Shown here piece after piece: positions 111 to 10,019 of a stretch of 10,019 nucleotides of DNA (its first letter is position 1; every line of letters starts with the position of its first letter). The translations under genes and the position numbers were made by a program. Source of the DNA: a virus (taxonomy: Duplodnaviria; Heunggongvirae; Uroviricota; Caudoviricetes); IMG/VR virus record IMGVR_UViG_2721755712_000002, one strand, 5' to 3'. The notes under the pieces were generated by a model. It saw only the letters and a list, made by a program, of their open reading frames with translations. It had not been told where the DNA came from and did not search any database.

Positions 111-434
111 TTACTGTCTCTGGCAATCTTTATCGCGATAACGCCTGAAGTACCCTCTCGCTTCCTCATCCATACCAAGAGCCGAATGAGTCCGCTTACC
201 AACATCCATCAATCCACTGAGAACGCCATACATAAAACGGTCGAAACCGTTAGCATTATTAACAACATTTTCCTGTCTGGAATTTTCCTCTGGTGAAACC
301 AAAGGTGATTGCTGCTGTTCTGGTTGGGCATCAAGCACAAAACCATCAGGAAGCTGTGAACTATCAGGAAACTGTGAGTTATCAGGTTGTTCATCGAGCA
401 CAAAACCTTCCGGTAAGATTACATTTGCTGCCAT
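111..434 (-). CDS. Hypothetical protein (107 aa) with an internal tandem peptide repeat
   Basis: ATG 434 with AGGAA upstream, overlapping the 3' end of the 447-aa gene by 16 nt. Repeat PEGFVLDEQPDNSQ / PDGFVLDAQPEQQQ, acidic and Gln-rich. Stop TAA at 111. Confidence 0.45.
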   Translation of the reverse strand: MAANVILPEGFVLDEQPDNSQFPDSSQLPDGFVLDAQPEQQQSPLVSPEENSRQENVVNNANGFDRFMYGVLSGLMDVGKRTHSALGMDEEARGYFRRYRDKDCQRQ

Positions 435-1762
435 TTTCCGTTCCTGTAAATGATTTTCTGACCAGTTTTAGGGTTGGTTGCCGTTGCGCCTTCTGATATT
501 CCTCCGGTTGCCGCTTTTGCCTGTCCAGTGCCAGCCTGTGATGTAGGCTGCCCGGAAACATCGTCAAATAGCTTCGCTTTCCTTCTTTCAAGGCTTTTTC
601 TTAGCCCCTGAGGAATAGTTTCTCCATATGTATCGAGATACTCGTCAACCTGCTGGTTAAACTGCTGCCCCATAGCATTGGCGTTGATTTTTGCGGCGTT
701 AACAATGTTATCCTTTGCCTCCTGCGACAGGCCGTTTCCAGCATTAAGCTGGTCTATGTATCCTTTGATTTGTCCCCATATGCCATCAGACCGCATTACC
801 TGAACCTGTTCGCCTTCACGAACGACTGACTGCGGGTCAAGAGATTTCATGTAGTTGAAGATAATCCCAAGTTGGGCAGCGCCAGTATTTACCTTGCTAA
901 GGGCTTGCAGAGAGTTTGCCGCCGCTCTGACAGAGTTATAATTTTTGCCAAAATTGGTAATGTCAGAATTTAATCCCTTAATTAAGTCTGCTGACGGCTT
1001 ACCTTTTTGCCCCAGCTCCATTAGCTTCAATCCCATCTCATCTGAGTGAATTTGTGCTCGCTGAGCCCTGTCTAGTTGAGCGTTCTGGATATTTGCCCAT
1101 CCTCTCGCGTTCTCCATGTCAGCCTGACGCATACTTTCATCCAGTCGCCCTTGCTCAAGTCGACGACCTTCCATTTGATCTTTGATATCGAAATACTTCT
1201 CATGACCGAGAGAAAACAGCGCCAGATTACCTGCGAAATGCTGGAAGCCCTGCGGGTCATTAACCTGCATTTCAGCAATAGTTTCTGGAGGGATACCTAA
1301 ACGACGCATCTCCTGCTCATTATCCATCATGAACCTGCCAAATGCGCCCTGACCAAGCGATGAGGCTACCTGTGCTTTGAGCGCCAGATTGCCATAATCA
1401 TCCCTTTGAGCATCATCGACATAACTCATCCCTTTACGGACTTCCTCAAACTCTTCTGGGAATGCTGTAATAAGATTACGCATCTGCTCCCTGTCACCGG
1501 ACGCATAAGCATCTGCATAACCTTTCTGGAATGCCGCTTTACGTTCCTGCTGTTGCTGCTGCTTATAAATGTCAGCAACTCCAGCCAGACCACGAAGACC
1601 TGTCAGAGCAACGTTATTTGCACCTGAGCGAGCCAGTTCATTGTTTTCGCGGATCAGACCAAGCGTTGCGTTAATGTCGCTTGCCTTTGGCGCATTCTCA
1701 TTTTGCGCACCGATGCCAGCCAGAAAACCACCAGAATTAATACCCTGTTGCCACGTAGCCAT
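419..1762 (-). CDS. Hypothetical protein (447 aa from ATG 1762; 451 aa if GTG 1774), Q/N/G/A-rich, possibly structural or coiled-coil
   Basis: Long ORF with consistent codon usage. ATG 1762 lies 5 nt after the upstream stop; GTG 1774 is the alternative. Contains a QQQQQ run and Gly/Asn-rich segments. No Shine-Dalgarno clearly visible. No catalytic motif recognised. Confidence 0.75.
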   Translation of the reverse strand: MATWQQGINSGGFLAGIGAQNENAPKASDINATLGLIRENNELARSGANNVALTGLRGLAGVADIYKQQQQQERKAAFQKGYADAYASGDREQMRNLITAFPEEFEEVRKGMSYVDDAQRDDYGNLALKAQVASSLGQGAFGRFMMDNEQEMRRLGIPPETIAEMQVNDPQGFQHFAGNLALFSLGHEKYFDIKDQMEGRRLEQGRLDESMRQADMENARGWANIQNAQLDRAQRAQIHSDEMGLKLMELGQKGKPSADLIKGLNSDITNFGKNYNSVRAAANSLQALSKVNTGAAQLGIIFNYMKSLDPQSVVREGEQVQVMRSDGIWGQIKGYIDQLNAGNGLSQEAKDNIVNAAKINANAMGQQFNQQVDEYLDTYGETIPQGLRKSLERRKAKLFDDVSGQPTSQAGTGQAKAATGGISEGATATNPKTGQKIIYRNGKWQQM

Positions 1763-1766
1763 AAAT

Positions 1767-1940
1767 TTACCCACGTCCAGTTAAAGTGTAAGCCAGCGCC
1801 TTATCCATTAATCCCCGAGCAATTTCGTGGATCGTTGGCGCAACTCCTACCTCTGATTTTTTACGCTGCTCCTCCTGAATTTTCTTTATCGCTTCCATTT
1901 GCTTCTCACTTATCAATACTGGCTTTACTGAAATAGCCAT
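1767..1940 (-). CDS. Small protein (57 aa), possibly ribbon-helix-helix (CopG/Arc-like) DNA-binding
   Basis: ATG 1940 with AAGGGGGG Shine-Dalgarno 4 nt upstream. The 100-aa ORF-track version (to 2069) is an unsupported extension across the terminator hairpin. Predicted pattern of strand (ISVKPVLIS) then two helices; the fold is inferred only. Confidence 0.55.
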   Translation of the reverse strand: MAISVKPVLISEKQMEAIKKIQEEQRKKSEVGVAPTIHEIARGLMDKALAYTLTGRG

Positions 1941-2543: not shown

Positions 2544-3281
2544 TTAATTTTTACCCATAGCAGCACATAATCCCTTTTTTGAAATATTGAAAAATGCGTT
2601 CATTCTTCCCGCTGGCTTAACCTTGTAGCCGCTTGCCACCATCGCCGCAATAAATGCTCCGTTGGGGATATAGTGCGGGTGATCACTGTGCTGGTGGTTT
2701 ATCTGGTTATATCGCTCCACTTCATGCTTCAACGTGTCAGATGTGGGGTTATCCTGCGGGAAGCTCTCAATCTGGGCATTACTCATCCCGTTGTCTCTGA
2801 TCCATCTCAGGCAGCTTTTCGCCGATACGATAAATGACGGGTTATCAAGCGGGTTTTCCCAGTCCGCATTCCGGTTGTGGAGCGCCAGTCCGTCAAGGTT
2901 AAATTGTGGGTATTCAGCGGTAATTACTGTCACTGCGTGGCGGATTTCAGTCTCGTCACAACATGGCTCATCTCCCACACCAGCAGGGTAATAATCTGAA
3001 CCACCGGGACTGATACAGCGTTTACCACTGAAAGGCCATTGCTTCGCCATTTCGGGTGTTGAGTGATTACCGTCGCTCCGTTCGCGCTGTGCCTCTGTCC
3101 ACTGGCTGGCATATTCAGTAAATGAAACTCTTTGCCCCTGGCGCATCCAGTGCGCAATCATAATTAAAGTGCGTTCCAGACTTTGGATGTCGCCAGCATT
3201 CCCGCACTGTGTAGCGAAACTTTTTAATTCTTCGCGCTCCGTTCTGGTCATTCCCTGCAGTATGCAATAGTTATTGTTCAT
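2544..3281 (-). CDS. Hypothetical protein (245 aa), Cys- and His-containing, no recognisable family
   Basis: ATG 3281 with GAGG upstream, coupled to the 76-aa gene. Segments RCISPGGSDYYPAGVGDEPCCDE and HQHSDHPH could be metal-binding. Followed directly by iteron cluster 1. Good codon usage and length. Confidence 0.7.
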   Translation of the reverse strand: MNNNYCILQGMTRTEREELKSFATQCGNAGDIQSLERTLIMIAHWMRQGQRVSFTEYASQWTEAQRERSDGNHSTPEMAKQWPFSGKRCISPGGSDYYPAGVGDEPCCDETEIRHAVTVITAEYPQFNLDGLALHNRNADWENPLDNPSFIVSAKSCLRWIRDNGMSNAQIESFPQDNPTSDTLKHEVERYNQINHQHSDHPHYIPNGAFIAAMVASGYKVKPAGRMNAFFNISKKGLCAAMGKN

Positions 3282-3501
3282 GTTTTACCTCTCTGATTTC
3301 TGCTGCCATATCTGTTGGCTCTATACAGCCGTCCCGACTTGCCACGCAGGGAATAATGATTTCAACGGTATCGCCGTCAATACACATTTCAACATTCGCC
3401 CATGCCGCAATGGGTAGCCAGTCTGAACGCCCCTCAAACCGTAGCTGCCAGCCAGAGGAAGAAGCTAACTGGCGCACTTTGTAAAATGGTGTGCTCATCA
3501 T
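3271..3501 (-). CDS. Small hypothetical protein (76 aa), first gene of a two-gene module
   Basis: ATGATG start at 3501 with GAGGGA upstream; stop TAA overlaps the next gene's start by 11 nt (ATGAACAATAA). Preceded by iteron cluster 2. Confidence 0.6.
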   Translation of the reverse strand: MMSTPFYKVRQLASSSGWQLRFEGRSDWLPIAAWANVEMCIDGDTVEIIIPCVASRDGCIEPTDMAAEIREVKHEQ

Positions 3502-3545
3502 TGGTTGTTCCCTCTCAGCCAGCCAGAAGAAATGCGTTTGTTAAT

Positions 3546-3648
3546 GGTATAGGTGGTACAGGTCTGGTATAGGTAAGATATTGACCTGTACCACTATAAC
3601 GCATTGTTTTTAATGCTGAATTAGCAAAGTGGTATAGGTGGTACAGGT
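3546..3648. repeat. Iteron cluster 2: exact 19-bp direct repeat TGGTATAGGTGGTACAGGT twice (84 bp apart), a partial copy, and an inverted copy
   Basis: Read directly: 3546..3564 and 3630..3648 are identical; TGGTATAGGT at 3566..3575; GACCTGTACCACTATA at 3583..3598 is the inverted copy. Sits between the stop of the primase-like gene (3678) and the start of the 76-aa gene (3501). Confidence 0.7.
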
Positions 3649-3677
3649 AAAAACGATCTTCTTGTAAAAAGACTATA

Positions 3678-4457
3678 TTAAAAAACATCATAACCCCCCA
3701 TACCGATCAGACGGGCAAACGCAGCCTGTAGAACTCCGACCTCTGGTAGTTCGTAGAACACGCCATTCCCTCGGTCTGGTCTTCCATGCTTCACCAGCCC
3801 CATTTGTGCAAGTGATTTACCCAGTAGTGATCTGGCAGCTGGTTCTTTAAGCTTTTCCCCACGCTCAAGCGACCACGCTACAAATCGACTAACCATATCC
3901 TTTGCAAACAAACGGACTTCGCCATTAAACGGAGGTTCATTGATTAGCTCGCCATAAAGAAACAATTCAACGCCAGACAGCCCCAGCAAGATTTCTTCAC
4001 GTAAGGCATCGGTCTGTGGCGCTCGTTGAGGGTCAAAACCTGAGAGATCCACCCCTTTAAGATGCCAAAGCAACTTTGCGGCACCGCCATCATTAAGCCA
4101 ACTGTACAGCCGATCAAAATACTCCCGGCTCTGTGCTTTTTCAGGAGATGGCTCAAGCACGAGATAGCGGCGCTCTCTTATCCCTGCCTGTAATACCTGT
4201 GTGCTGTTACTGGCAAATATCAACCGGGCAAAATTCGGCATTGGTTCAGCATCAATTCCCTTGCGCTCAAGGTTAAACGTCGGTTCGCTAATAATCGCTT
4301 CCTGAATAGCTTCTGGTACGCCATTGAGCAGTGACATAACCGCGCCAATCATTAACTTGTCTCTGTTGCTTGGGCTGGCCCCTTCAAGCCAGAACCCTAA
4401 AACAGTCTGAACCTGTTCGATGCGACATTGCGCTTCAATGAGCTGGATGTTGGTCAT
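3678..4457 (-). CDS. Primase-helicase C-terminal-like protein (259 aa); helicase motif C and arginine-finger-like segment, no Walker A in this ORF
   Basis: GGAGAG Shine-Dalgarno 6 nt upstream of ATG 4457. Segment ARLIFASNSTQVLQAGIRERRYLVLEPS resembles the motif C (hhhhS/T-N) plus Arg-finger region of SF3/P4-family primase-helicases. No GxxxxGK(S/T) P-loop is present. Product assignment is from recalled motifs only. Confidence 0.65.
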   Translation of the reverse strand: MTNIQLIEAQCRIEQVQTVLGFWLEGASPSNRDKLMIGAVMSLLNGVPEAIQEAIISEPTFNLERKGIDAEPMPNFARLIFASNSTQVLQAGIRERRYLVLEPSPEKAQSREYFDRLYSWLNDGGAAKLLWHLKGVDLSGFDPQRAPQTDALREEILLGLSGVELFLYGELINEPPFNGEVRLFAKDMVSRFVAWSLERGEKLKEPAARSLLGKSLAQMGLVKHGRPDRGNGVFYELPEVGVLQAAFARLIGMGGYDVF

Positions 4458-4717: not shown

Positions 4718-4908
4718 TTTTCACCACCAAGAATTACCAGCTCTGCACGGGCATCGTTAACCAAAGATGAGCACGCTTTAATCGCATCCACGACATCAGC
4801 AGCGTCCATTTCTTCAGCCGAAAGACTGACAGCAACCAGGACAGCCGCTGCTTGCTCGATTAATTGAAGTGCGGACGTAAGGCGAGGGGTATTAATTGAG
4901 TTATTCAT
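4714..4908 (-). CDS. Small hypothetical protein (64 aa)
   Basis: ATG 4908 with ACGGGGG Shine-Dalgarno-like sequence upstream; 8-nt overlap with the upstream gene; stop TGA overlaps the next ATG (ATGA). Confidence 0.5.
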   Translation of the reverse strand: MNNSINTPRLTSALQLIEQAAAVLVAVSLSAEEMDAADVVDAIKACSSLVNDARAELVILGGEK

Positions 4909-5119
4909 TGGTTGCCCCCGTTTTTACTGGCATTTCGCCACCTTCCAGCAGGAAATGAACGTCACGAACGGCGAGATCCAATATCGCGAGTAACGCCTTC
5001 AGTCTTTCGTCTCGTGAGGGAGAGTTGCTCACCAGAATGTCGTTAATCACTTCTGTCAGTGTGATGATCTGGCTTGTGCGTTCGAGGGGATCCATATGCA
5101 CATCGTAGGTTTTAATCAT
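4901..5119 (-). CDS. Small hypothetical protein (72 aa)
   Basis: ATG 5119 preceded by GGAGGTGG; ATGATTAA overlap with the upstream gene's stop. Corresponds to the C-terminal 72 codons of the 355-codon ORF. Stop TAA overlaps the next ATG (ATGAATAA). Confidence 0.5.
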   Translation of the reverse strand: MIKTYDVHMDPLERTSQIITLTEVINDILVSNSPSRDERLKALLAILDLAVRDVHFLLEGGEMPVKTGATNE

Positions 5120-5306
5120 GTGCCACCTCCATGCGGATACGACCAGCAAAAAAGCAGACGTGATCGCGCACCAGAGAACGGCGAGCATCGCGTTCAGACT
5201 CGGCAGCAATATGATGAATTTTGGCGGTAATTGTCGGGCAATCGCGGCGAACTGCGGCGATAATCCAGATAAATTGCGTTTTTTGGGTAGGGGTAGTAGC
5301 CAGCAT
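5112..5306 (-). CDS. Small hypothetical protein (64 aa)
   Basis: AAGGAGG Shine-Dalgarno 7 nt upstream of ATG 5306. Codons are E. coli-like (CGC, CTG, GAT, GCC) in this frame, whereas the overlapping frame of the 355-codon ORF is rare-codon-rich here. Stop TAA forms an ATGATTAA overlap with the next gene. Confidence 0.5.
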   Translation of the reverse strand: MLATTPTQKTQFIWIIAAVRRDCPTITAKIHHIAAESERDARRSLVRDHVCFFAGRIRMEVAHD

Positions 5307-5968
5307 GTGGCAGCCTCCTTCAGATAGCAGGTTACGCTACCACCGGAAACGCCAATTTCGCTGGTGGTAGCCCAGACAGGGTTGGCGTAACCGGCTCTGA
5401 AGGATACCGGCGCTTCCGAAGAAGCCCCCGCCTGAGCCACCATTGATTGACAAAGGCGCTGGATTATACACCAACGCCCAAAAAATGGGTGAGTCAGACC
5501 TACGACATAAAAAAAGACGCTCGGCGCGTCATATGTCGCCTTCAGAATTTTTAGGACGCCAATCCCGGCACCCGTTTTATGAGGTGCCTTATAACCATAA
5601 ACCGTGTTGCCGCATAACGGCAAGCTCTTTTTTATGGACTCCGAAAACTCACTATTGGAAGAACCAGAAGCACAGTACATCGCGCTCATTTCGTTAACGT
5701 CACGCGCGTGGACGAAGGTTTTTGTGGAGTCACTACACGAGCAGAGAAAGCCATCTACGACCAGAAATTCTCTGGCATAGCCGCTGACCTTCTCAACGCT
5801 AACACCATCGACCGTAATTTCTGACATAGTTAAGGCATCCGCTCCTACCACCAGCAAATGATAAACTTTGCTTGTATCTGCTGTATTAATGTCTGACTTT
5901 GCTGTCATATTGCTGGATTTTGGCGACATACCAGCCAGTGAAAATATCTTCTTCTGGGCGGTTAGCAT
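5303..5968 (-). CDS. Hypothetical protein (about 221 codons) with no in-frame stop; the frame stays open to 4901, giving the 355-codon ORF in the track
   Basis: ATG 5968 has a GGAGG Shine-Dalgarno 7 nt upstream and overlaps the previous stop (ATGCTAA). Codon usage is good in this frame down to about 5306, then rare codons (CTA, TTA, CGA, ATA, AGG) appear while the -1 frame becomes well-coded. At the expected ATGA start/stop overlap the sequence is ATGC, so the 3' end given here is inferred. Confidence 0.55.
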
Positions 5969-6982: not shown

Positions 6983-7414
6983 TTAGGCGGCGTTAAACGC
7001 GTCCGGGTAGAGTTTCAGAATGTCGGCAATTTCCTGCTGAGAAAGTCCGTTGTGATCATTTATGTTCGCAAGATGGTTAACATGAGTGATCACTTTCAGA
7101 ACATCACCACGGCAGGAGAAACGGTAGCGAAGGTGTGTTCCGATACCATCAGGATTCTTTTCGTCGATACGCTCCAGAGTGATTCCAAGCTGGCGTTCTA
7201 ACTCTGTTGCATAGTTACGACCAGAAGACAGACGGCAGTAGCGAAGAATGTCATTTTCTGTCCATCCCTCTATACCAGTACGCAGCATATAGACTCGGGC
7301 ACGATGCTTTTTCGGTGTGCGCTTTGGTGCTTGAAGGGATTTTGTAAGGGGCGTAATATCAGATACGCGAATATCTGAATTAGCCGCCTGTAATGGGCGG
7401 TTTTTCTTTTCCAT
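6983..7414 (-). CDS. Hypothetical protein (143 aa), possibly DNA-binding; basic N-terminus
   Basis: ATG 7414..7412 overlaps the alpA stop. Lys/Arg-rich N-terminal segment (APKRTPKKHRAR), then a region that could be a winged helix. Codon usage consistent with neighbours. No family recognised. Confidence 0.65.
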   Translation of the reverse strand: MEKKNRPLQAANSDIRVSDITPLTKSLQAPKRTPKKHRARVYMLRTGIEGWTENDILRYCRLSSGRNYATELERQLGITLERIDEKNPDGIGTHLRYRFSCRGDVLKVITHVNHLANINDHNGLSQQEIADILKLYPDAFNAA

Positions 7415-7632
7415 CAGGCCACCTTCCCGCGGCGTTCTGCCAGCCAGTTATTAATTTCCACCGCATCAAACGCAGTCACGTTATCTGTTAGCTTCACTGG
7501 GCGTGGAAGAGTGCCATTTTTAACCCATCTATCAATAGTAGGCAGTGAAACACCTAGCAATTCCGGCATGCGAAAGCGACGGATGTATCCAGTTGTTGGG
7601 ATAGCTGATGATGCTGGCTTGTGTACTGTCAT
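7414..7632 (-). CDS. alpA: AlpA-family transcriptional regulator / excisionase-like DNA-binding protein (72 aa)
   Basis: Motif RMPELLGVSLPTIDRWVKNGTLPRPVKL matches the AlpA/Xis-type helix-turn-helix signature (TI-x-RW-x-K-x-G-x-P-x-P-x-KL). First gene after the AT-rich control region. Stop TGA overlaps the next ATG (TGATG). Confidence 0.8.
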   Translation of the reverse strand: MTVHKPASSAIPTTGYIRRFRMPELLGVSLPTIDRWVKNGTLPRPVKLTDNVTAFDAVEINNWLAERRGKVA

Positions 7633-7713
7633 GTCTCTAGTAACCTCTCTGATAGCTCATGAAGTTACTTAAAGTTTAGTGGTTGCCCATACAGTATTTC
7701 TATTAAGACTAGA

Positions 7714-7769
7714 ATCTATTGAAAGAAATTATAAATCTATTGAAAAAATACCGATCCACTGAAAGATTG
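7714..7769. promoter_or_regulatory. Three direct repeats of a (T)CTATTGAAA(G/A)A-like motif at 21-22 bp spacing, upstream of the AlpA-like gene; putative regulator or nucleoid-protein binding sites
   Basis: ATCTATTGAAAGAAATT at 7714..7730, ATCTATTGAAAAAATAC at 7735..7751, partial copy CCACTGAAAGATTG at 7756..7769. They sit 85-135 bp upstream of the minus-strand start at 7632, in a roughly 30% GC region. Confidence 0.35.
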
Positions 7770-7923
7770 CAAATGCAGGTGGGATAATTATTTTCTTTAT
7801 TTTCAATTAGTTACCAGTTTAAAAAATCATTGTTTTATCAAAGAGTTATATCTTTCATCGTCATTCATCATGTTTTTACATTTCTTTTTATCTTTTATTA
7901 TTCAATTGGTTGAGTCGGTTTAT

Positions 7924-7960
7924 AATGGCTCATGATGGCTTAAAATGGCTAATGATAGCT
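7924..7960. repeat. Tandem direct repeat, two 17-bp units with 20-bp period (AATGGCTCATGATGGCT / AATGGCTAATGATAGCT)
   Basis: Read directly: units at 7924..7940 and 7944..7960, 15 of 17 identical. A perfect TATAAT hexamer sits at 7921..7926 on the plus strand. Lies in the AT-rich integrase-proximal intergenic region. Confidence 0.5.
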
Positions 7961-8103
7961 GGCGTATCTTTTAGAGATGGGGTGATTACAGATGAACTAA
8001 GCCGAACAGATATAGCAATGGCTAGGCATAGAATTATCTATGCTGGTGGAGATGGGTAAACAGGTAATGCCCCGCCATTGCTTTGGAGGGGCGTGAAAAG
8101 TGA

Positions 8104-8754
8104 TTAGTCGAGATCGTGGACAGCTAATAAAGCCCGTGAGATTTTTTCTAGGAATGTGGCTTTTGCTATTCCTTTATGGGATATCCCTTCATCCTTGATT
8201 AAGGTTTCTATGTCACGGTATATAGCTGTGCGATTAGGTTTCCCATTTTGGATGTAGGAAGATGAGCCTGATTTTTTTATCAGCAGATGTACTATCAACC
8301 CCATCATTTTCATTGTCCCGTTTTCCTCATCCTGCTTTCTATGCTGCCCACGTCCGCTGCGGTTGGTTTCTTTGATGTAGTTTACTAACTGGAGTCCTCC
8401 AAGGTTTCGGGCTTTTTCTTCCCAGCCCTTGGTGCCACGCAAATCATCAATCGCTTCTGATATTTTCTGAACAATTATTTCTGGTGTATTTGTGTCAATA
8501 AATGGGTAAGAAGCTAAGAAAATATCAAGGGCATGGCAAGGCTCATCTTTACTAGTTTTTTCACCTCTGTACACCTTGATAGCTCTGGCAAGATGAGTTC
8601 TGACAAAATCGACATATTCGAAATTTTCCTCAGGCACATCGCTAATGCGCATAGATGGGTTTAGGCCAGCCAAGGCCACAGCCATTTCATGAGGGGTAAT
8701 CGATACAGATGAACAAAGCCGTTCGATTGGCGATTTTCTCAAGATGTTGTTCAC
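8104..8754 (-). CDS. Hypothetical protein (216 aa), AT-rich cargo gene translationally coupled to the integrase; function unknown
   Basis: ORF starts at GTG 8754..8752, overlapping the integrase stop TGA (ATGTGA); alternative in-frame ATG at 8685. About 40% GC in the counted segments against about 50% for the integrase. Stop TAA at 8104. No motif I can recognise. Confidence 0.6.
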   Translation of the reverse strand: MNNILRKSPIERLCSSVSITPHEMAVALAGLNPSMRISDVPEENFEYVDFVRTHLARAIKVYRGEKTSKDEPCHALDIFLASYPFIDTNTPEIIVQKISEAIDDLRGTKGWEEKARNLGGLQLVNYIKETNRSGRGQHRKQDEENGTMKMMGLIVHLLIKKSGSSSYIQNGKPNRTAIYRDIETLIKDEGISHKGIAKATFLEKISRALLAVHDLD

Positions 8755-10019
8755 ATTTGCCTCCGGGCTTTATCGAATGGCGTTACGTTGTAGTCTTTCC
8801 CGCTTTCCAGTGCCACCAGCAGATCTGCCCACTGTGCCAGTGCTGCTTTACGCTCATCAAAATACTGATGACGGTTATAAATCCCCTCTACGCCCTTAAT
8901 GCGATGATTGAGGCATCGTTCCGCCACGACAGGATCAACACCCAATGCTGCTAAATGAGTACGTGCGGTGCGTCGGAAGTCGTGAATCGTGAAATTAGGC
9001 ACATCCGGCATTTCGGCGCGAACCTTAGCCAGTGCTACGGGTAAAGTGCTTTCCTGAATATGTGGGATCATTCTGTTTTGCATCTTCCTGGCCGGAAGCA
9101 CCCATGCGCTATTACATGAAAAGGTGTGTAGCTCTCTCAACCATTCAACGGCTGGGGAAGGTAGAGGTATATCAATAGGGTCTCCGTTTTTGCTGCGTTC
9201 TTCCGGCAAATGCCATACCGCACCATCTAAATCAAACTCTTCCCATCGTGCGGCGCATAACTCCATCTTACGAACGCATAGTGCCAGCAATAGCTTAAAT
9301 GTCAGTTCGTTCTGGCGGCTGAATCCTTTTGCGGTGCGCATAGCCTCGAATAGCCTGATAAGCTCATCGCGAGTTAGCCAACGGTCGCGGGAAACCTCTT
9401 TACCACCAGCATCAGATACTTCAAACGCTGAACAAGGGTTTATCTCCAGAGCGTGGCGTTTTATCCCATAGTCAAAGATACGGCGTGTCCAGCGTAATAC
9501 ATCTGTTGCTATCGTTGGTGCTCCTCGGTCAACGATACCTTTTAACATGTCGTCAATGTGACGTGGCTTAACGTCCTCTACCTTCATATGCCCAATGCAG
9601 GGGTTAATATCCTTATCAATTCTCCGGCGAAGGATATCGGGATGTTTCCATCTCGGAAGTATCTGTCGCTCGAAGTATTCGGCGGCCAGATCTGAAACGC
9701 GCATGGCGTTTTTCTCAGCCTCCATTTTTGCCAGTGCTTCAGCTTTTCGTTCCTGTTTTTCTGCTGCTACGTCATAGCCAAGAGCAACTCTGGCTGACAG
9801 CTCTTTTGCTGTTTCTCTGGCTTTTGATAGTGACAGTTCGGAGTAAGAGCCGATAACCATAGCCCGCTGTTTTCCTGCGAGCTTATATCGGAATCGCCAG
9901 AACGGGACTGTGTAGTTTTTGGGGTAGCAAATATAAAGGCCGTTGCCGTCTGCCTTGCCATCAAATCTGTCTCCCGCCTTTATCCATGCGCGGATCTGCA
10001 TATCTGTGAGTTTTGGCAT
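8751..10019 (-). CDS. int: Tyrosine recombinase / site-specific integrase, P4 family (422 aa)
   Basis: The ATG is the last three bases of the window. N-terminus MPKLTDMQIRAWIKAG...GNGLYICY...WRFRYKLAGKQ is typical of the P4-integrase arm-binding region. C-terminal catalytic region contains HDFRRT (His-x-x-Arg), LNH and GIYNRHQY (candidate tyrosine nucleophile). Family assignment is from recalled motifs, not a search. Confidence 0.9.
   Translation of the reverse strand: MPKLTDMQIRAWIKAGDRFDGKADGNGLYICYPKNYTVPFWRFRYKLAGKQRAMVIGSYSELSLSKARETAKELSARVALGYDVAAEKQERKAEALAKMEAEKNAMRVSDLAAEYFERQILPRWKHPDILRRRIDKDINPCIGHMKVEDVKPRHIDDMLKGIVDRGAPTIATDVLRWTRRIFDYGIKRHALEINPCSAFEVSDAGGKEVSRDRWLTRDELIRLFEAMRTAKGFSRQNELTFKLLLALCVRKMELCAARWEEFDLDGAVWHLPEERSKNGDPIDIPLPSPAVEWLRELHTFSCNSAWVLPARKMQNRMIPHIQESTLPVALAKVRAEMPDVPNFTIHDFRRTARTHLAALGVDPVVAERCLNHRIKGVEGIYNRHQYFDERKAALAQWADLLVALESGKDYNVTPFDKARRQM

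What the first reader, a model, noticed from the sequence alone, without database searches (positions are those of the whole stretch)
7633..8103. Very AT-rich 470-bp control region with tandem repeats upstream of the AlpA operon
This is the longest intergenic gap in the window. It contains a tandem 20-bp-period repeat (7924..7960), three TCTATTGAAA-type direct repeats at helical-turn-multiple spacing (7714..7769), and a perfect plus-strand TATAAT (7921..7926) that could drive a transcript antisense to the 216-aa gene. It is likely the main regulatory switch of the element: the promoter and operators for the leftward alpA operon, perhaps with divergent or antisense transcription. The AT-richness also makes it a candidate for H-NS silencing.
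Basis: partly seen in the sequence, partly recalled or inferred. Interest (0 to 1): 0.45.

Follow-up and report, generated by a model that had tools for sequence, protein, structure and literature searches.

The report
Satellite island's alpA promoter-operator region
This AT-rich gap is the control region in front of alpA, the master switch gene of a phage-satellite island in E. coli, and its conserved repeats always travel with one uncharacterised neighbouring gene that may be the regulator that senses the helper phage.

Summary
The described features are all present. The window is an EcCIMP1-like Gram-negative phage-inducible chromosomal island (PICI) inserted at yicC, with every gene on the minus strand. 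The gap 7633-8103 lies between a 216-aa gene (p216, overlapping int by 4 nt) and alpA.

Eleven divergent relatives show what is conserved, mainly the alpA-proximal ~135 bp:
- Direct repeats TTTCAATRGAT at 19- and 21-bp spacing, plus a fourth copy 16 bp on that overlaps a weak -35.
- An invariant TAnnnT -10 (7673-7678).
- A covarying inverted repeat or hairpin (7636-7672) whose 3' arm overlaps the Shine-Dalgarno sequence.

The repeats occur only where p216 occurs, whatever the AlpA or integrase variant. Other islands carry unrelated ~300-aa proteins in the same slot, each with its own operator-like motif.

The distal ~330 bp is not conserved in sequence but shows a strict 10-bp periodicity in all eleven relatives.

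It is not the replication origin, because iterons sit next to the primase gene. There is no conserved ORF or antisense promoter. The plus-strand TATAAT is part of the repeat unit.

Which protein binds the repeats is inferred, not shown.

The parts
8104..8754 (-). p216 gene. It overlaps the int stop by 4 nt. It is the variable 'slot' gene that always accompanies the repeat array.
   Evidence: same CDS in RefSeq; no Pfam or PADLOC hit, only phrog_30524 of unknown function; co-occurrence with the repeats. AF2 pLDDT 90.5 with no PDB neighbour.
8069..8092 (-). GC-rich hairpin just after the p216 stop. It has no U-run. A second hairpin lies at 8026-8043.
   Evidence: fold of 7990-8110, -30.3 kcal/mol, z -3.2; not scored as an intrinsic terminator.
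7904..8103 (-). C-rich, G-poor stretch on the sense strand (C 0.28-0.34, G 0.10-0.17). Candidate Rho-dependent terminator that insulates alpA from int-p216 read-through (inferred).
   Evidence: C>G skew of 0.14-0.38 in the first half of the distal region in all 11 relatives. L021 has a canonical intrinsic terminator here instead.
7917..7960 (-). Tandem array of four 10-bp units (GCYATnnTnA on the minus strand). The plus-strand TATAAT 7921-7926 lies inside it.
   Evidence: homologous arrays in L008 and L012 with core RYCRTT.
7773..8103 (.). Distal region with strict 10-bp sequence periodicity. The property is conserved although the sequence is not.
   Evidence: lag-10 autocorrelation excess z = 3.3 here and 4.4-6.7 in 10 relatives. 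These gaps and the P4 vis-upstream region fill the top of 2676 control windows; register display.
7781..7910 (-). Very AT-rich block (GC about 0.20-0.25) with A-tracts phased at 10 bp over about 5 turns. Predicted intrinsically bent DNA.
   Evidence: highest helical-period A/T-tract power in the window, 0.69 against mean 0.10, sd 0.10.. GC by window.
7754..7764 (-). Operator repeat R1 (TTTCAGTGGAT).
7735..7745 (-). Operator repeat R2 (TTTCAATAGAT), 19 bp after R1.
   Evidence: invariant columns.
7714..7724 (-). Operator repeat R3 (TTTCAATAGAT), 21 bp after R2.
   Evidence: invariant columns.
7698..7708 (-). Degenerate repeat R4 (TCTTAATAGAA), 16 bp after R3. It overlaps the -35-like TAGAAA (7697-7702). 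With the 3' flank of R3 it forms an imperfect palindrome ATTCYAG-N5-7-CTRGAAT.
   Evidence: anchored alignment of 11 loci..
7673..7678 (-). -10 element TAAACT. T1, A2 and T6 are invariant in all aligned relatives. An 18-nt spacer separates it from TAGAAA. The predicted start is near 7666 (inferred).
   Evidence: invariant T426, A427, T431; hexamers TAAACT, TACTAT, TAGGAT, TACACT, TATCAT, TAGAAT.
7636..7672 (-). Inverted repeat or RNA hairpin (arms 7664-7672 and 7636-7644). Its 3' arm overlaps the 3' end of the Shine-Dalgarno GAGAGG (7644-7649), which the predicted stem occludes, just before the alpA ATG (7630-7632).
   Evidence: 78% of cells paired against 31-45% when slid, 6 of 9 pairs with compensatory changes, 0 of 500 shuffles reach the score.: -14.6 kcal/mol, z -3.6.
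7414..7632 (-). alpA (72 aa). The full-length start is confirmed by N-terminal conservation. It overlaps the next gene by 1 nt.

Best explanation
The gap is the composite cis-regulatory region of alpA, the master activator of an EcCIMP1-like Gram-negative PICI. The parts below are listed in the direction of transcription (minus strand).

1. After the p216 stop come hairpins and a C-rich, G-poor stretch. These probably stop int-p216 transcripts (inferred).
2. A 10-bp-periodic, AT-rich segment with phased A-tracts follows. It probably forms bent DNA that helps a protein assembly or a silencer (inferred).
3. Next is an operator array of three direct repeats (TTTCAATRGAT, spacing 19 and 21 bp) plus a fourth copy lying over the -35.
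4. The promoter is a weak sigma-70 type: TAGAAA, 18 nt, TAAACT.
5. An inverted repeat or hairpin occludes the Shine-Dalgarno sequence; its 3' arm overlaps the 3' end of the SD. Its 5' arm starts right at the -10, so the predicted start falls inside the arm. Read-through RNAs could then fold and hide the ribosome site, while promoter-initiated RNAs could not (inferred).

The most likely binder of the array is the product of the adjacent 216-aa gene, which is co-expressed with int in the resting island. I think it holds PalpA off, or tunes it, until a helper-phage signal arrives, after which AlpA reinforces its own expression.

Shown: the anatomy, its conservation, and the strict linkage of the array to p216.
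Taken from related islands: helper inducibility and AlpA autoactivation.
Inferred: who binds, the sign of regulation, the start site, and the roles of the distal part.
For: Identity of the island.
- The window shares gene order and near-identical proteins with EcCIMP1.
[quoted passage not shown] Conservation.
- Across 10 aligned p216-type gaps (11 loci analysed), only the proximal 135 bp aligns.
- Invariant columns fall on the repeats and on T/A/T of the -10.

Linkage of the array to p216.
- The array is present in every locus with p216. That is 11 distinct modules, with p216 identity down to 33%. Every island hit from two blind pattern scans also carries p216, and a 36% p216 homologue (L132) has the repeat pair about 275 bp downstream of it.
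- The array is absent from 17 loci without p216, although their AlpA is up to 93% and Int up to 91% identical.
- It is present where AlpA is only 61-65% or Int only 64% identical.
- The motif cluster is unique within the whole island and differs from the integrase arm sites (TATGTACAC).

Other slot families. They carry their own conserved palindromes at the same place. For example, TCGCARCGAAAA-N4-TTTTCGYTGCGA is kept between proteins only 41% identical.

p216 itself. It overlaps the int stop. It has a conserved C-terminal KG(I/V)xxST(F/Y)xxK motif reminiscent of recombinase-type HTH.

Other elements. Hairpin. Periodicity. A-tract phasing. C>G skew.
Against: DNA binding by p216 is not shown.
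- There is no Pfam hit, and only sub-threshold HTH hits in a few homologues.
- Profile comparison with AlpA and with the other slot families gives nothing.

The 5' end of PICIs is a reported site for defence cargo (PMC11364771), so p216 could be cargo.

The linkage could be hitch-hiking. Homologous recombination is easy in the conserved int 3' end and alpA leader, but hard in the divergent spacer between p216 and the array.

EcCIMP1 has a helper-inducible alpA promoter with no annotated gene between int and alpA.

The promoter matches only 8 of 12 consensus positions and was not reported by the scan. No transcript data exist for the start site.

RNAalifold did not predict the hairpin by itself. 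A covarying inverted repeat could equally be a DNA operator.
Confidence: 0.55

Rival explanations
1. The repeats are sites for an activator that is not p216. Candidates are a helper-phage protein, AlpA itself, or a host factor. p216 would then be unrelated accessory or defence cargo that merely sits in the same recombination module. The array spanning about -37 to -95 would work like tandem class I/II activator sites at a weak promoter.
For: - The promoter is weak (8 of 12), as expected for an activator-dependent promoter.
- Helper-dependent activation and AlpA autoactivation are the published behaviour of related alpA promoters.
- PICI 5' ends carry immune genes.
- p216 has no recognisable DNA-binding domain.
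- P2 Cox activates P4 PLL through arrays of about 10-bp boxes (PMC3936717).
Against: - AlpA is an unlikely binder. Loci with 89-93% identical AlpA lack the repeats, and loci with 61-65% identical AlpA have them.
- p216 matches no PADLOC defence model.
- The module boundary falls in the alpA leader, so each slot gene brings its own promoter architecture. That is unexpected for pure cargo.
- No cox boxes or Ogr/Delta sites are present.
Confidence: 0.3
2. The distal AT-rich, 10-bp-periodic part is the island's origin of replication, as in satellite P4. There the ori, with tandem 10-bp and 8-bp repeats, lies directly upstream of the alpA homologue vis.
For: - P4 annotation places rep_origin 9086-9809 upstream of vis, with 3 x 10-bp and 6 x TGTTCACC repeats.
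- The P4 region is the only non-p216 sequence near the top of the lag-10 ranking.
- L008 and L028 have GTTCAC(C) at 10-bp spacing.
- The island primase N-terminus is 33% identical to P4 alpha.
Against: - The window has a separate, strong iteron cluster (TGGTAYAGGT, about 11 copies) at 3545-3648 and 2435-2537, beside the primase gene. None lie in the gap.
- EcCIMP1, with a different helicase half, has different iterons (TGTTGGTTCAA) at the same primase-proximal place.
- The identical gap occurs with both helicase types.
- Related islands with other slot genes have only about 100 bp upstream of alpA.
- The published PICI ori lies downstream of pri.
Confidence: 0.05
3. The gap hides an unannotated gene or antisense RNA on the plus strand. 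Candidates are the 45-49-aa ORF 7910/7922-8059, or a transcript from TATAAT 7921-7926.
For: An ORF and a perfect -10 hexamer exist. One plus-strand promoter-like hit lies at 7919-7946.
Against: - No ORF in the gap is conserved among 11 relatives. tblastx similarity appears in all frames and only over the repeat and promoter block.
- Indels not divisible by three separate the window from L008.
- The TATAAT is not conserved.
- There is no Rfam family above threshold.
- There is no PHROG hit for the peptide.
Confidence: 0.04
4. The distal ~330 bp has no specific function. It would be drifting spacer whose 10-bp periodicity reflects repeated slippage duplications in AT-rich DNA.
For: The sequence is not conserved beyond close relatives. 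The length varies from 210 to 452 bp. An IS66 element sits in it in one genome.
Against: - The lag-10 signal is present in all 11 independent versions, in unbroken register over 110-190 bp.
- It is essentially absent from about 2,600 control windows.
- The strand-specific C>G skew and the phased A-tract block recur at the same relative positions.
Confidence: 0.15

Closest known systems
alpA promoter regions of Gram-negative PICIs (EcCIMP1, EcCICFT073)
   Same: Same island family as EcCIMP1, with shared p143, antA, DUF4222, ash and icd genes. Same position downstream of int and upstream of alpA. A fragment of similar size (-449..+50) is a helper-inducible, AlpA-autoactivated promoter.
   Different: The sequence is unrelated to the EcCIMP1 gap. 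EcCIMP1 has no p216, no TTTCAATRGAT array and no 10-bp periodicity. No cis-elements have been defined in the papers I read.
P4 vis-upstream region (PLL late promoter, cox boxes, ori)
   Same: It lies upstream of the AlpA homologue that opens the leftward operon. It is several hundred bp long and AT-rich, with tandem 10-bp repeats and lag-10 periodicity. The downstream operon likewise carries a C4/CI-type RNA. A helper protein acts on the repeats to switch the satellite on.
   Different: No cox boxes, no TGT-N12-ACA sites and no TGTTCACC iterons are present in the window. There is no divergent sid-type operon. The ori is elsewhere.
SaPI / Gram-positive PICI Stl (Rpr) repressor-operator switch
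   Same: A highly variable gene lies next to int, is transcribed with int, and sits directly beside the promoter of the island's activation and excision genes. Many unrelated variants exist, each with its own site, as expected if each senses a different helper.
   Different: The gene is co-directional with alpA, not divergent. p216 has no detectable HTH family or Stl similarity (Foldseek hits to Stl have E of 6-8 and are meaningless). Repression and anti-repression are untested.
IS10/Tn10 fold-back inhibition of read-through transcripts
   Same: An inverted repeat can occlude the ribosome site, and its 5' arm lies at or upstream of the element's own predicted start. Only externally initiated RNAs would fold. 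The comparison rests on my own knowledge of Davis, Simons and Kleckner 1985.
   Different: The start site is only predicted. The repeat could be a DNA operator instead.

Membership tests
Gram-negative PICI alpA control region | Lies between int (or an accessory gene after int) and alpA, co-directional, in an island with int, alpA and pri | tested here: met
   Island at yicC|dinD with int, alpA, primase and PerC, syntenic with EcCIMP1.
Gram-negative PICI alpA control region | Transcription induced by helper phage and boosted by AlpA | not testable with these tools
   Shown only for EcCIMP1 and EcCICFT073. Their upstream sequences differ from this one.
Sigma-70 promoter | -10 and -35 hexamers with 16-18-nt spacing at a conserved position | tested here: inconclusive
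   TAGAAA-18-TAAACT is 8 of 12 and below the scanner threshold. However, T1, A2 and T6 of the -10 are invariant in the aligned relatives.
P4 PLL/Psid-type late promoter | Ogr/Delta site TGT-N12-ACA near -55, or cox boxes TTAAA(G/C)NC(A/C) | tested here: not met
   No match in the gap.
Iteron-type replication origin (P4 ori or PICI ori) | Iterons matched to the element's initiator, adjacent AT-rich unwinding region, co-variation with the initiator | tested here: not met
   Iterons that co-vary with the helicase type lie beside the primase gene. The same gap occurs with two helicase types.
Repressor-operator switch of Stl type | Adjacent gene encodes a sequence-specific DNA-binding protein | tested here: inconclusive
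   No domain hit. Novel all-alpha fold. There is only an HTH-like C-terminal motif.
Repressor-operator switch of Stl type | Operator co-varies with the regulator gene and overlaps the promoter | tested here: met
   The array is present if and only if p216 is present. R4 overlaps the -35. Linkage by descent is not excluded.
Structured 5' leader controlling translation | Helix kept by compensatory changes and covering the Shine-Dalgarno sequence | tested here: met
   6 of 9 pairs compensatory, 78% paired against 31-45% slid.. Whether it acts as RNA or as DNA is unresolved.
H-NS-silenced AT-rich region | H-NS occupancy | not testable with these tools
   Only compatible features: GC 0.20-0.28 and phased A-tracts.
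Rho-dependent terminator | C-rich, G-poor unstructured RNA downstream of a gene lacking an intrinsic terminator | tested here: inconclusive
   C>G in all 11 relatives. No U-run terminator here. No functional data.

The most novel reading that the evidence does not exclude
The variable gene between int and alpA (p216 here, unrelated ~300-aa proteins elsewhere), together with its matched operator in front of alpA, is the unidentified helper-sensing switch of Gram-negative PICIs. It would be a functional counterpart of Stl. Each protein family would hold PalpA off and be released by a different helper-phage protein. p216 would represent a new DNA-binding fold, and the 10-bp-periodic bent DNA would serve as its assembly platform.
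Probability: 0.25. Interest if true: 0.8.

Novelty: new variant of a known kind. Interest (0 to 1): 0.55.

Why it matters
How helper phages switch on alpA is an open point for Gram-negative PICIs. In the papers I could read, the inducer is unknown and the existence of a repressor is called unclear.

This locus gives defined, short targets for that question:
- four repeats and a -10 within 100 bp;
- a covarying leader hairpin;
- a single candidate regulator gene that is always linked to them.

The broader pattern, in which several unrelated slot proteins each have their own motif at the same spot, suggests a modular sensor layer. That layer could set which helper mobilises which island. These islands are common in ETEC and ExPEC, where they carry PerC-like regulators, so this bears on the spread of virulence and defence genes.

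Tried and rejected
- Replication origin in the gap. Rejected. Iterons lie next to the primase gene and co-vary with the helicase type, and the same gap goes with two helicase types.
- Integrase arm sites. Rejected. The arm-type repeats at the island ends are TATGTACAC, and the TTTCAATRGAT cluster is unique to this spot.
- AlpA as binder of the repeats. Disfavoured by the identity table.
- Small ORF or antisense RNA. No conservation.
- Remnant of a longer slot gene. blastx of the gap against the ~300-aa slot proteins gave nothing.
- P4-type sites (cox box, Ogr/Delta site, TGTTCACC). Absent from the window.
- Homology of p216 to AlpA or to the other slot families. None found by hhalign. The N-terminus of the other slot families shows only a weak resemblance to AlpA (E = 0.034).
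- Structure searches for p216.
- E. coli-only comparison. Uninformative, because 110 genomes carry the gap at 99% identity or more.
- RNAalifold on the leader. It returned no structure, so the helix had to be named and counted.
- Blind pattern scans. Most of the 106 hits in metagenome and viral collections were chance matches in AT-rich DNA. Only the 14 with p216 homologues, 13 of them with int or alpA alongside, were relevant.

Full report
**Context.** All real genes in the window are on the minus strand.
- int is at 8751-10019.
- A 216-aa gene (p216, 8104-8754) overlaps the int stop.
- The gap spans 7633-8103.
- It is followed by alpA (7414-7632), a 143-aa gene, antA, an Ash-family gene containing Rfam C4 and isrK RNAs, a truncated primase, and a P22-type ejection protein.

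The gap is found at 99% identity or more in 110 of 5426 complete E. coli genomes, mostly ETEC and ExPEC. It always sits inside a ~15-kb island between yicC and dinD that RefSeq leaves unannotated at this spot. The island is syntenic with EcCIMP1 and shares near-identical proteins with it. EcCIMP1 is an experimentally characterised PICI mobilised by the P22-like phage Kapi1.

**The observation.**
- GC is 0.28 over 7651-7950.
- Two perfect copies and one imperfect copy of TTTCAATAGAT (minus strand) lie at 7714-7764, with spacing 21 and 19. An exact 12-mer repeat this close occurs in 0.1% of shuffles.
- A 41-bp tandem array lies at 7920-7960.
- TATAAT lies at 7921-7926.

Two corrections are needed. 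The array is better read as four 10-bp units. The gap is also not clearly the longest, because 1941-2543 is 603 bp without a CDS in RefSeq.

**Relatives.** E. coli copies are too similar to be informative, so I collected relatives in other genera.
- An AlpA profile retrieved 22 loci.
- p216 homologues gave seven more.
- Blind DNA-pattern scans of metagenome and viral collections gave 14 relevant hits among 106, the rest being chance matches.

In most islands, the ~1.1 kb between int and alpA holds one ~300-aa gene followed by only ~100 bp. These genes fall into at least three unrelated families. Only islands with p216 have a long gap of 350-592 bp.

**The conserved proximal part.** Aligning ten p216-type gaps shows that only the alpA-proximal ~135 bp is conserved. 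Anchored on the third repeat, it aligns without indels in all 11 loci.
- R1, R2 and R3 (consensus TTTYAAWRGAW) have spacing 19 and 21.
- A fourth, degenerate copy lies 16 bp further on. With the flank of R3 it makes an imperfect palindrome.
- About 20 nt later comes CCAC-TAnnnT.

The three invariant letters T, A and T fall on positions 1, 2 and 6 of a -10 hexamer (window 7673-7678, TAAACT). Eighteen nt upstream is TAGAAA, inside R4. This is a weak promoter, matching 8 of 12 positions and missed by the scanner. That suits a promoter which, in related islands, is silent until a helper phage is induced. With a start near 7666, the four sites are centred near -37, -53, -74 and -95.

**Who binds the repeats.** The array tracks p216 and nothing else.
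- It is present in every p216 locus, even where p216 is 33% identical, AlpA is 61-65% identical, or Int is 64% identical. A 36% p216 homologue (L132, locus cut before alpA) also has the repeat pair about 275 bp downstream of it.
- It is absent from 17 loci without p216, although their AlpA reaches 93% and their Int 91% identity.
- Within the complete island, the motif cluster occurs only here.
- The integrase arm-type repeats at the island ends are different.

The other slot families have their own conserved motifs at the same position. One example is a 12-bp-arm palindrome kept almost unchanged between proteins only 41% identical. So the unit that recombines as a block is "slot gene plus alpA promoter architecture", with junctions in the int 3' end and the alpA leader.

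I take this as the main argument that the slot proteins regulate alpA. p216 would be made together with Int in the resting island, and I think it most likely holds the promoter off. The argument is not proof.
- Linkage by descent would give the same table.
- The 5' end of PICIs is a reported place for defence cargo.
- EcCIMP1 has no annotated gene in the slot.
- p216 has no detectable DNA-binding domain.

A deeper alignment gave a confident structure model (pLDDT 90.5). It is all-helical and has no significant neighbour in the PDB. Only a conserved C-terminal KG(I/V)xxST(F/Y)xxK motif resembles recombinase-type helix-turn-helix sequences.

**The leader.** Directly before the alpA ATG, an inverted repeat (window arms 7664-7672 and 7636-7644) flanks a ~19-nt loop; its 3' arm overlaps the 3' end of the Shine-Dalgarno sequence, which the predicted stem occludes. 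Across 24 loci from all slot families:
- 78% of cells pair, against 31-45% when the partner is slid;
- six of nine pairs show compensatory changes;
- no shuffle reaches the covariation score.

The window's version folds at -14.6 kcal/mol with z = -3.6. RNAalifold did not find it unaided. Because the 5' arm begins right after the -10, the predicted start lies inside it. Transcripts entering from int-p216 could therefore fold and mask the ribosome site, while promoter-initiated ones could not. This logic is known from IS10 (my own knowledge). It depends on an unmapped start site, and a DNA-level operator is an alternative reading.

**The distal part.** The remaining ~330 bp does not align beyond close relatives and contains no conserved ORF. 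Three properties recur in all 11 versions.
1. There is a sharp excess of sequence identity at a lag of exactly 10 bp, with an echo at 20 bp. It has z = 3.3 in the window and 4.4-6.7 elsewhere. It runs in unbroken register for 110-190 bp, with units that drift along the array. Among 2676 control windows from about 300 kb, the top of the ranking is filled by these gaps and by one other sequence, the region upstream of vis in satellite P4.
2. The first half is C-rich and G-poor on the sense strand. It follows GC hairpins without U-runs. The most divergent relative instead has a textbook intrinsic terminator. This suggests that the job here is to end int-p216 transcription, probably through Rho.
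3. A block of A-tracts phased at 10 bp lies at 7781-7910. It gives the strongest such signal in the window and predicts bent DNA. That would suit wrapping by an oligomeric regulator or H-NS binding, neither of which I can test.

**Comparison with P4.** In P4, the region upstream of vis, the AlpA homologue, holds the late promoter PLL. It also holds three tandem 10-bp repeats, which read as cox boxes on the other strand, and the origin with TGTTCACC iterons. The helper's Cox protein binds arrays of such boxes, bends DNA, and activates PLL.

The window's layout is analogous, but it fails the specific membership tests. It has no cox boxes, no Ogr/Delta sites and no P4 iterons.

The origin hypothesis is rejected for the following reasons.
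- The window has about 11 TGGTAYAGGT iterons beside the primase gene.
- EcCIMP1 has a primase-helicase with the same N-terminal half but an unrelated C-terminal half. It has different iterons at the same primase-proximal site.
- The identical gap occurs with both helicase types.

**Verdict.** The interpretation as the alpA promoter-operator region is supported by comparative evidence and by published experiments on related islands. The antisense-promoter idea is not supported.

New relative to what I could find in the literature:
- the defined operator array and its strict association with an uncharacterised protein family;
- the slot-specific operator pattern across islands;
- the covarying leader helix;
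- the conserved 10-bp periodic architecture.

The binder, the sign of regulation and the start site remain inferences.

Noticed in passing
window 5360-5447 and 5510-5587 (minus strand): Rfam C4 antisense RNA (79.9 bits, E 7.5e-15) and isrK (59.9 bits) lie inside the Ash-family ORF 4901-5968. This suggests a P1/P4-type RNA immunity module downstream of alpA.
   Followed up: no
window 3545-3648 and 2435-2537: Clusters of TGGTAYAGGT / CTGTACCAC iterons (about 11 copies, both orientations) flank the region 3' of the primase gene. This is the likely replication origin. EcCIMP1, with a different helicase half, has TGTTGGTTCAA iterons at the equivalent place.
   Followed up: partly
window about 4296-4300: Relative to strain UPEC129, the window lacks 2.4 kb. 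The deletion removes the N-terminal two thirds of the primase-helicase and two small genes, so this copy of the island is probably replication-defective. Relative to TW10598, it keeps the ash/C4 segment that TW10598 lacks.
   Followed up: partly
L004-L025, between int and alpA (about 2850-4000 in each locus): The int-alpA slot holds at least four unrelated protein families, none with Pfam or PADLOC hits. Each is followed by its own conserved palindrome or direct repeat in front of alpA. Several share an N-terminal IPxxxYxxxxRAAxxLxxxxxDLLHFA module weakly resembling AlpA.
   Followed up: partly
window 7968-7976 (L003 6344-9041): In E. coli strain 500010, an IS66-family element (ISCro1) is inserted in the distal part of the gap with a 9-bp duplication. 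It separates p216 from the repeat arrays and alpA by 2.7 kb.
   Followed up: partly
L001 16410-16470 and 1575-1600: TATGTACAC-type repeats lie at both ends of the island next to yicC and dinD. They are probably integrase arm-type sites.
   Followed up: no
[not shown]
   Followed up: yes
window 341-386: Tandem 18-bp repeat AACTATCAGGAAACTGTG x 2.6 lies near the start of the ejection-protein gene region.
   Followed up: no
window 419-1774: A P22 gp-type DNA ejection (injectosome translocase) gene is carried by a satellite island that has no capsid or tail genes. EcCIMP1 has the same, plus a lytic transglycosylase.
   Followed up: no
L008 (CACSKA010000004.1): A contig labelled Chryseobacterium sp. 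18061 carries an island about 90% identical in Int, AlpA and p216 to the E. coli one. This suggests a mislabelled or contaminated assembly.
   Followed up: no
window 7414 and 8751-8754: alpA overlaps the next gene by 1 nt, and int overlaps p216 by 4 nt. Both suggest translational coupling.
   Followed up: no
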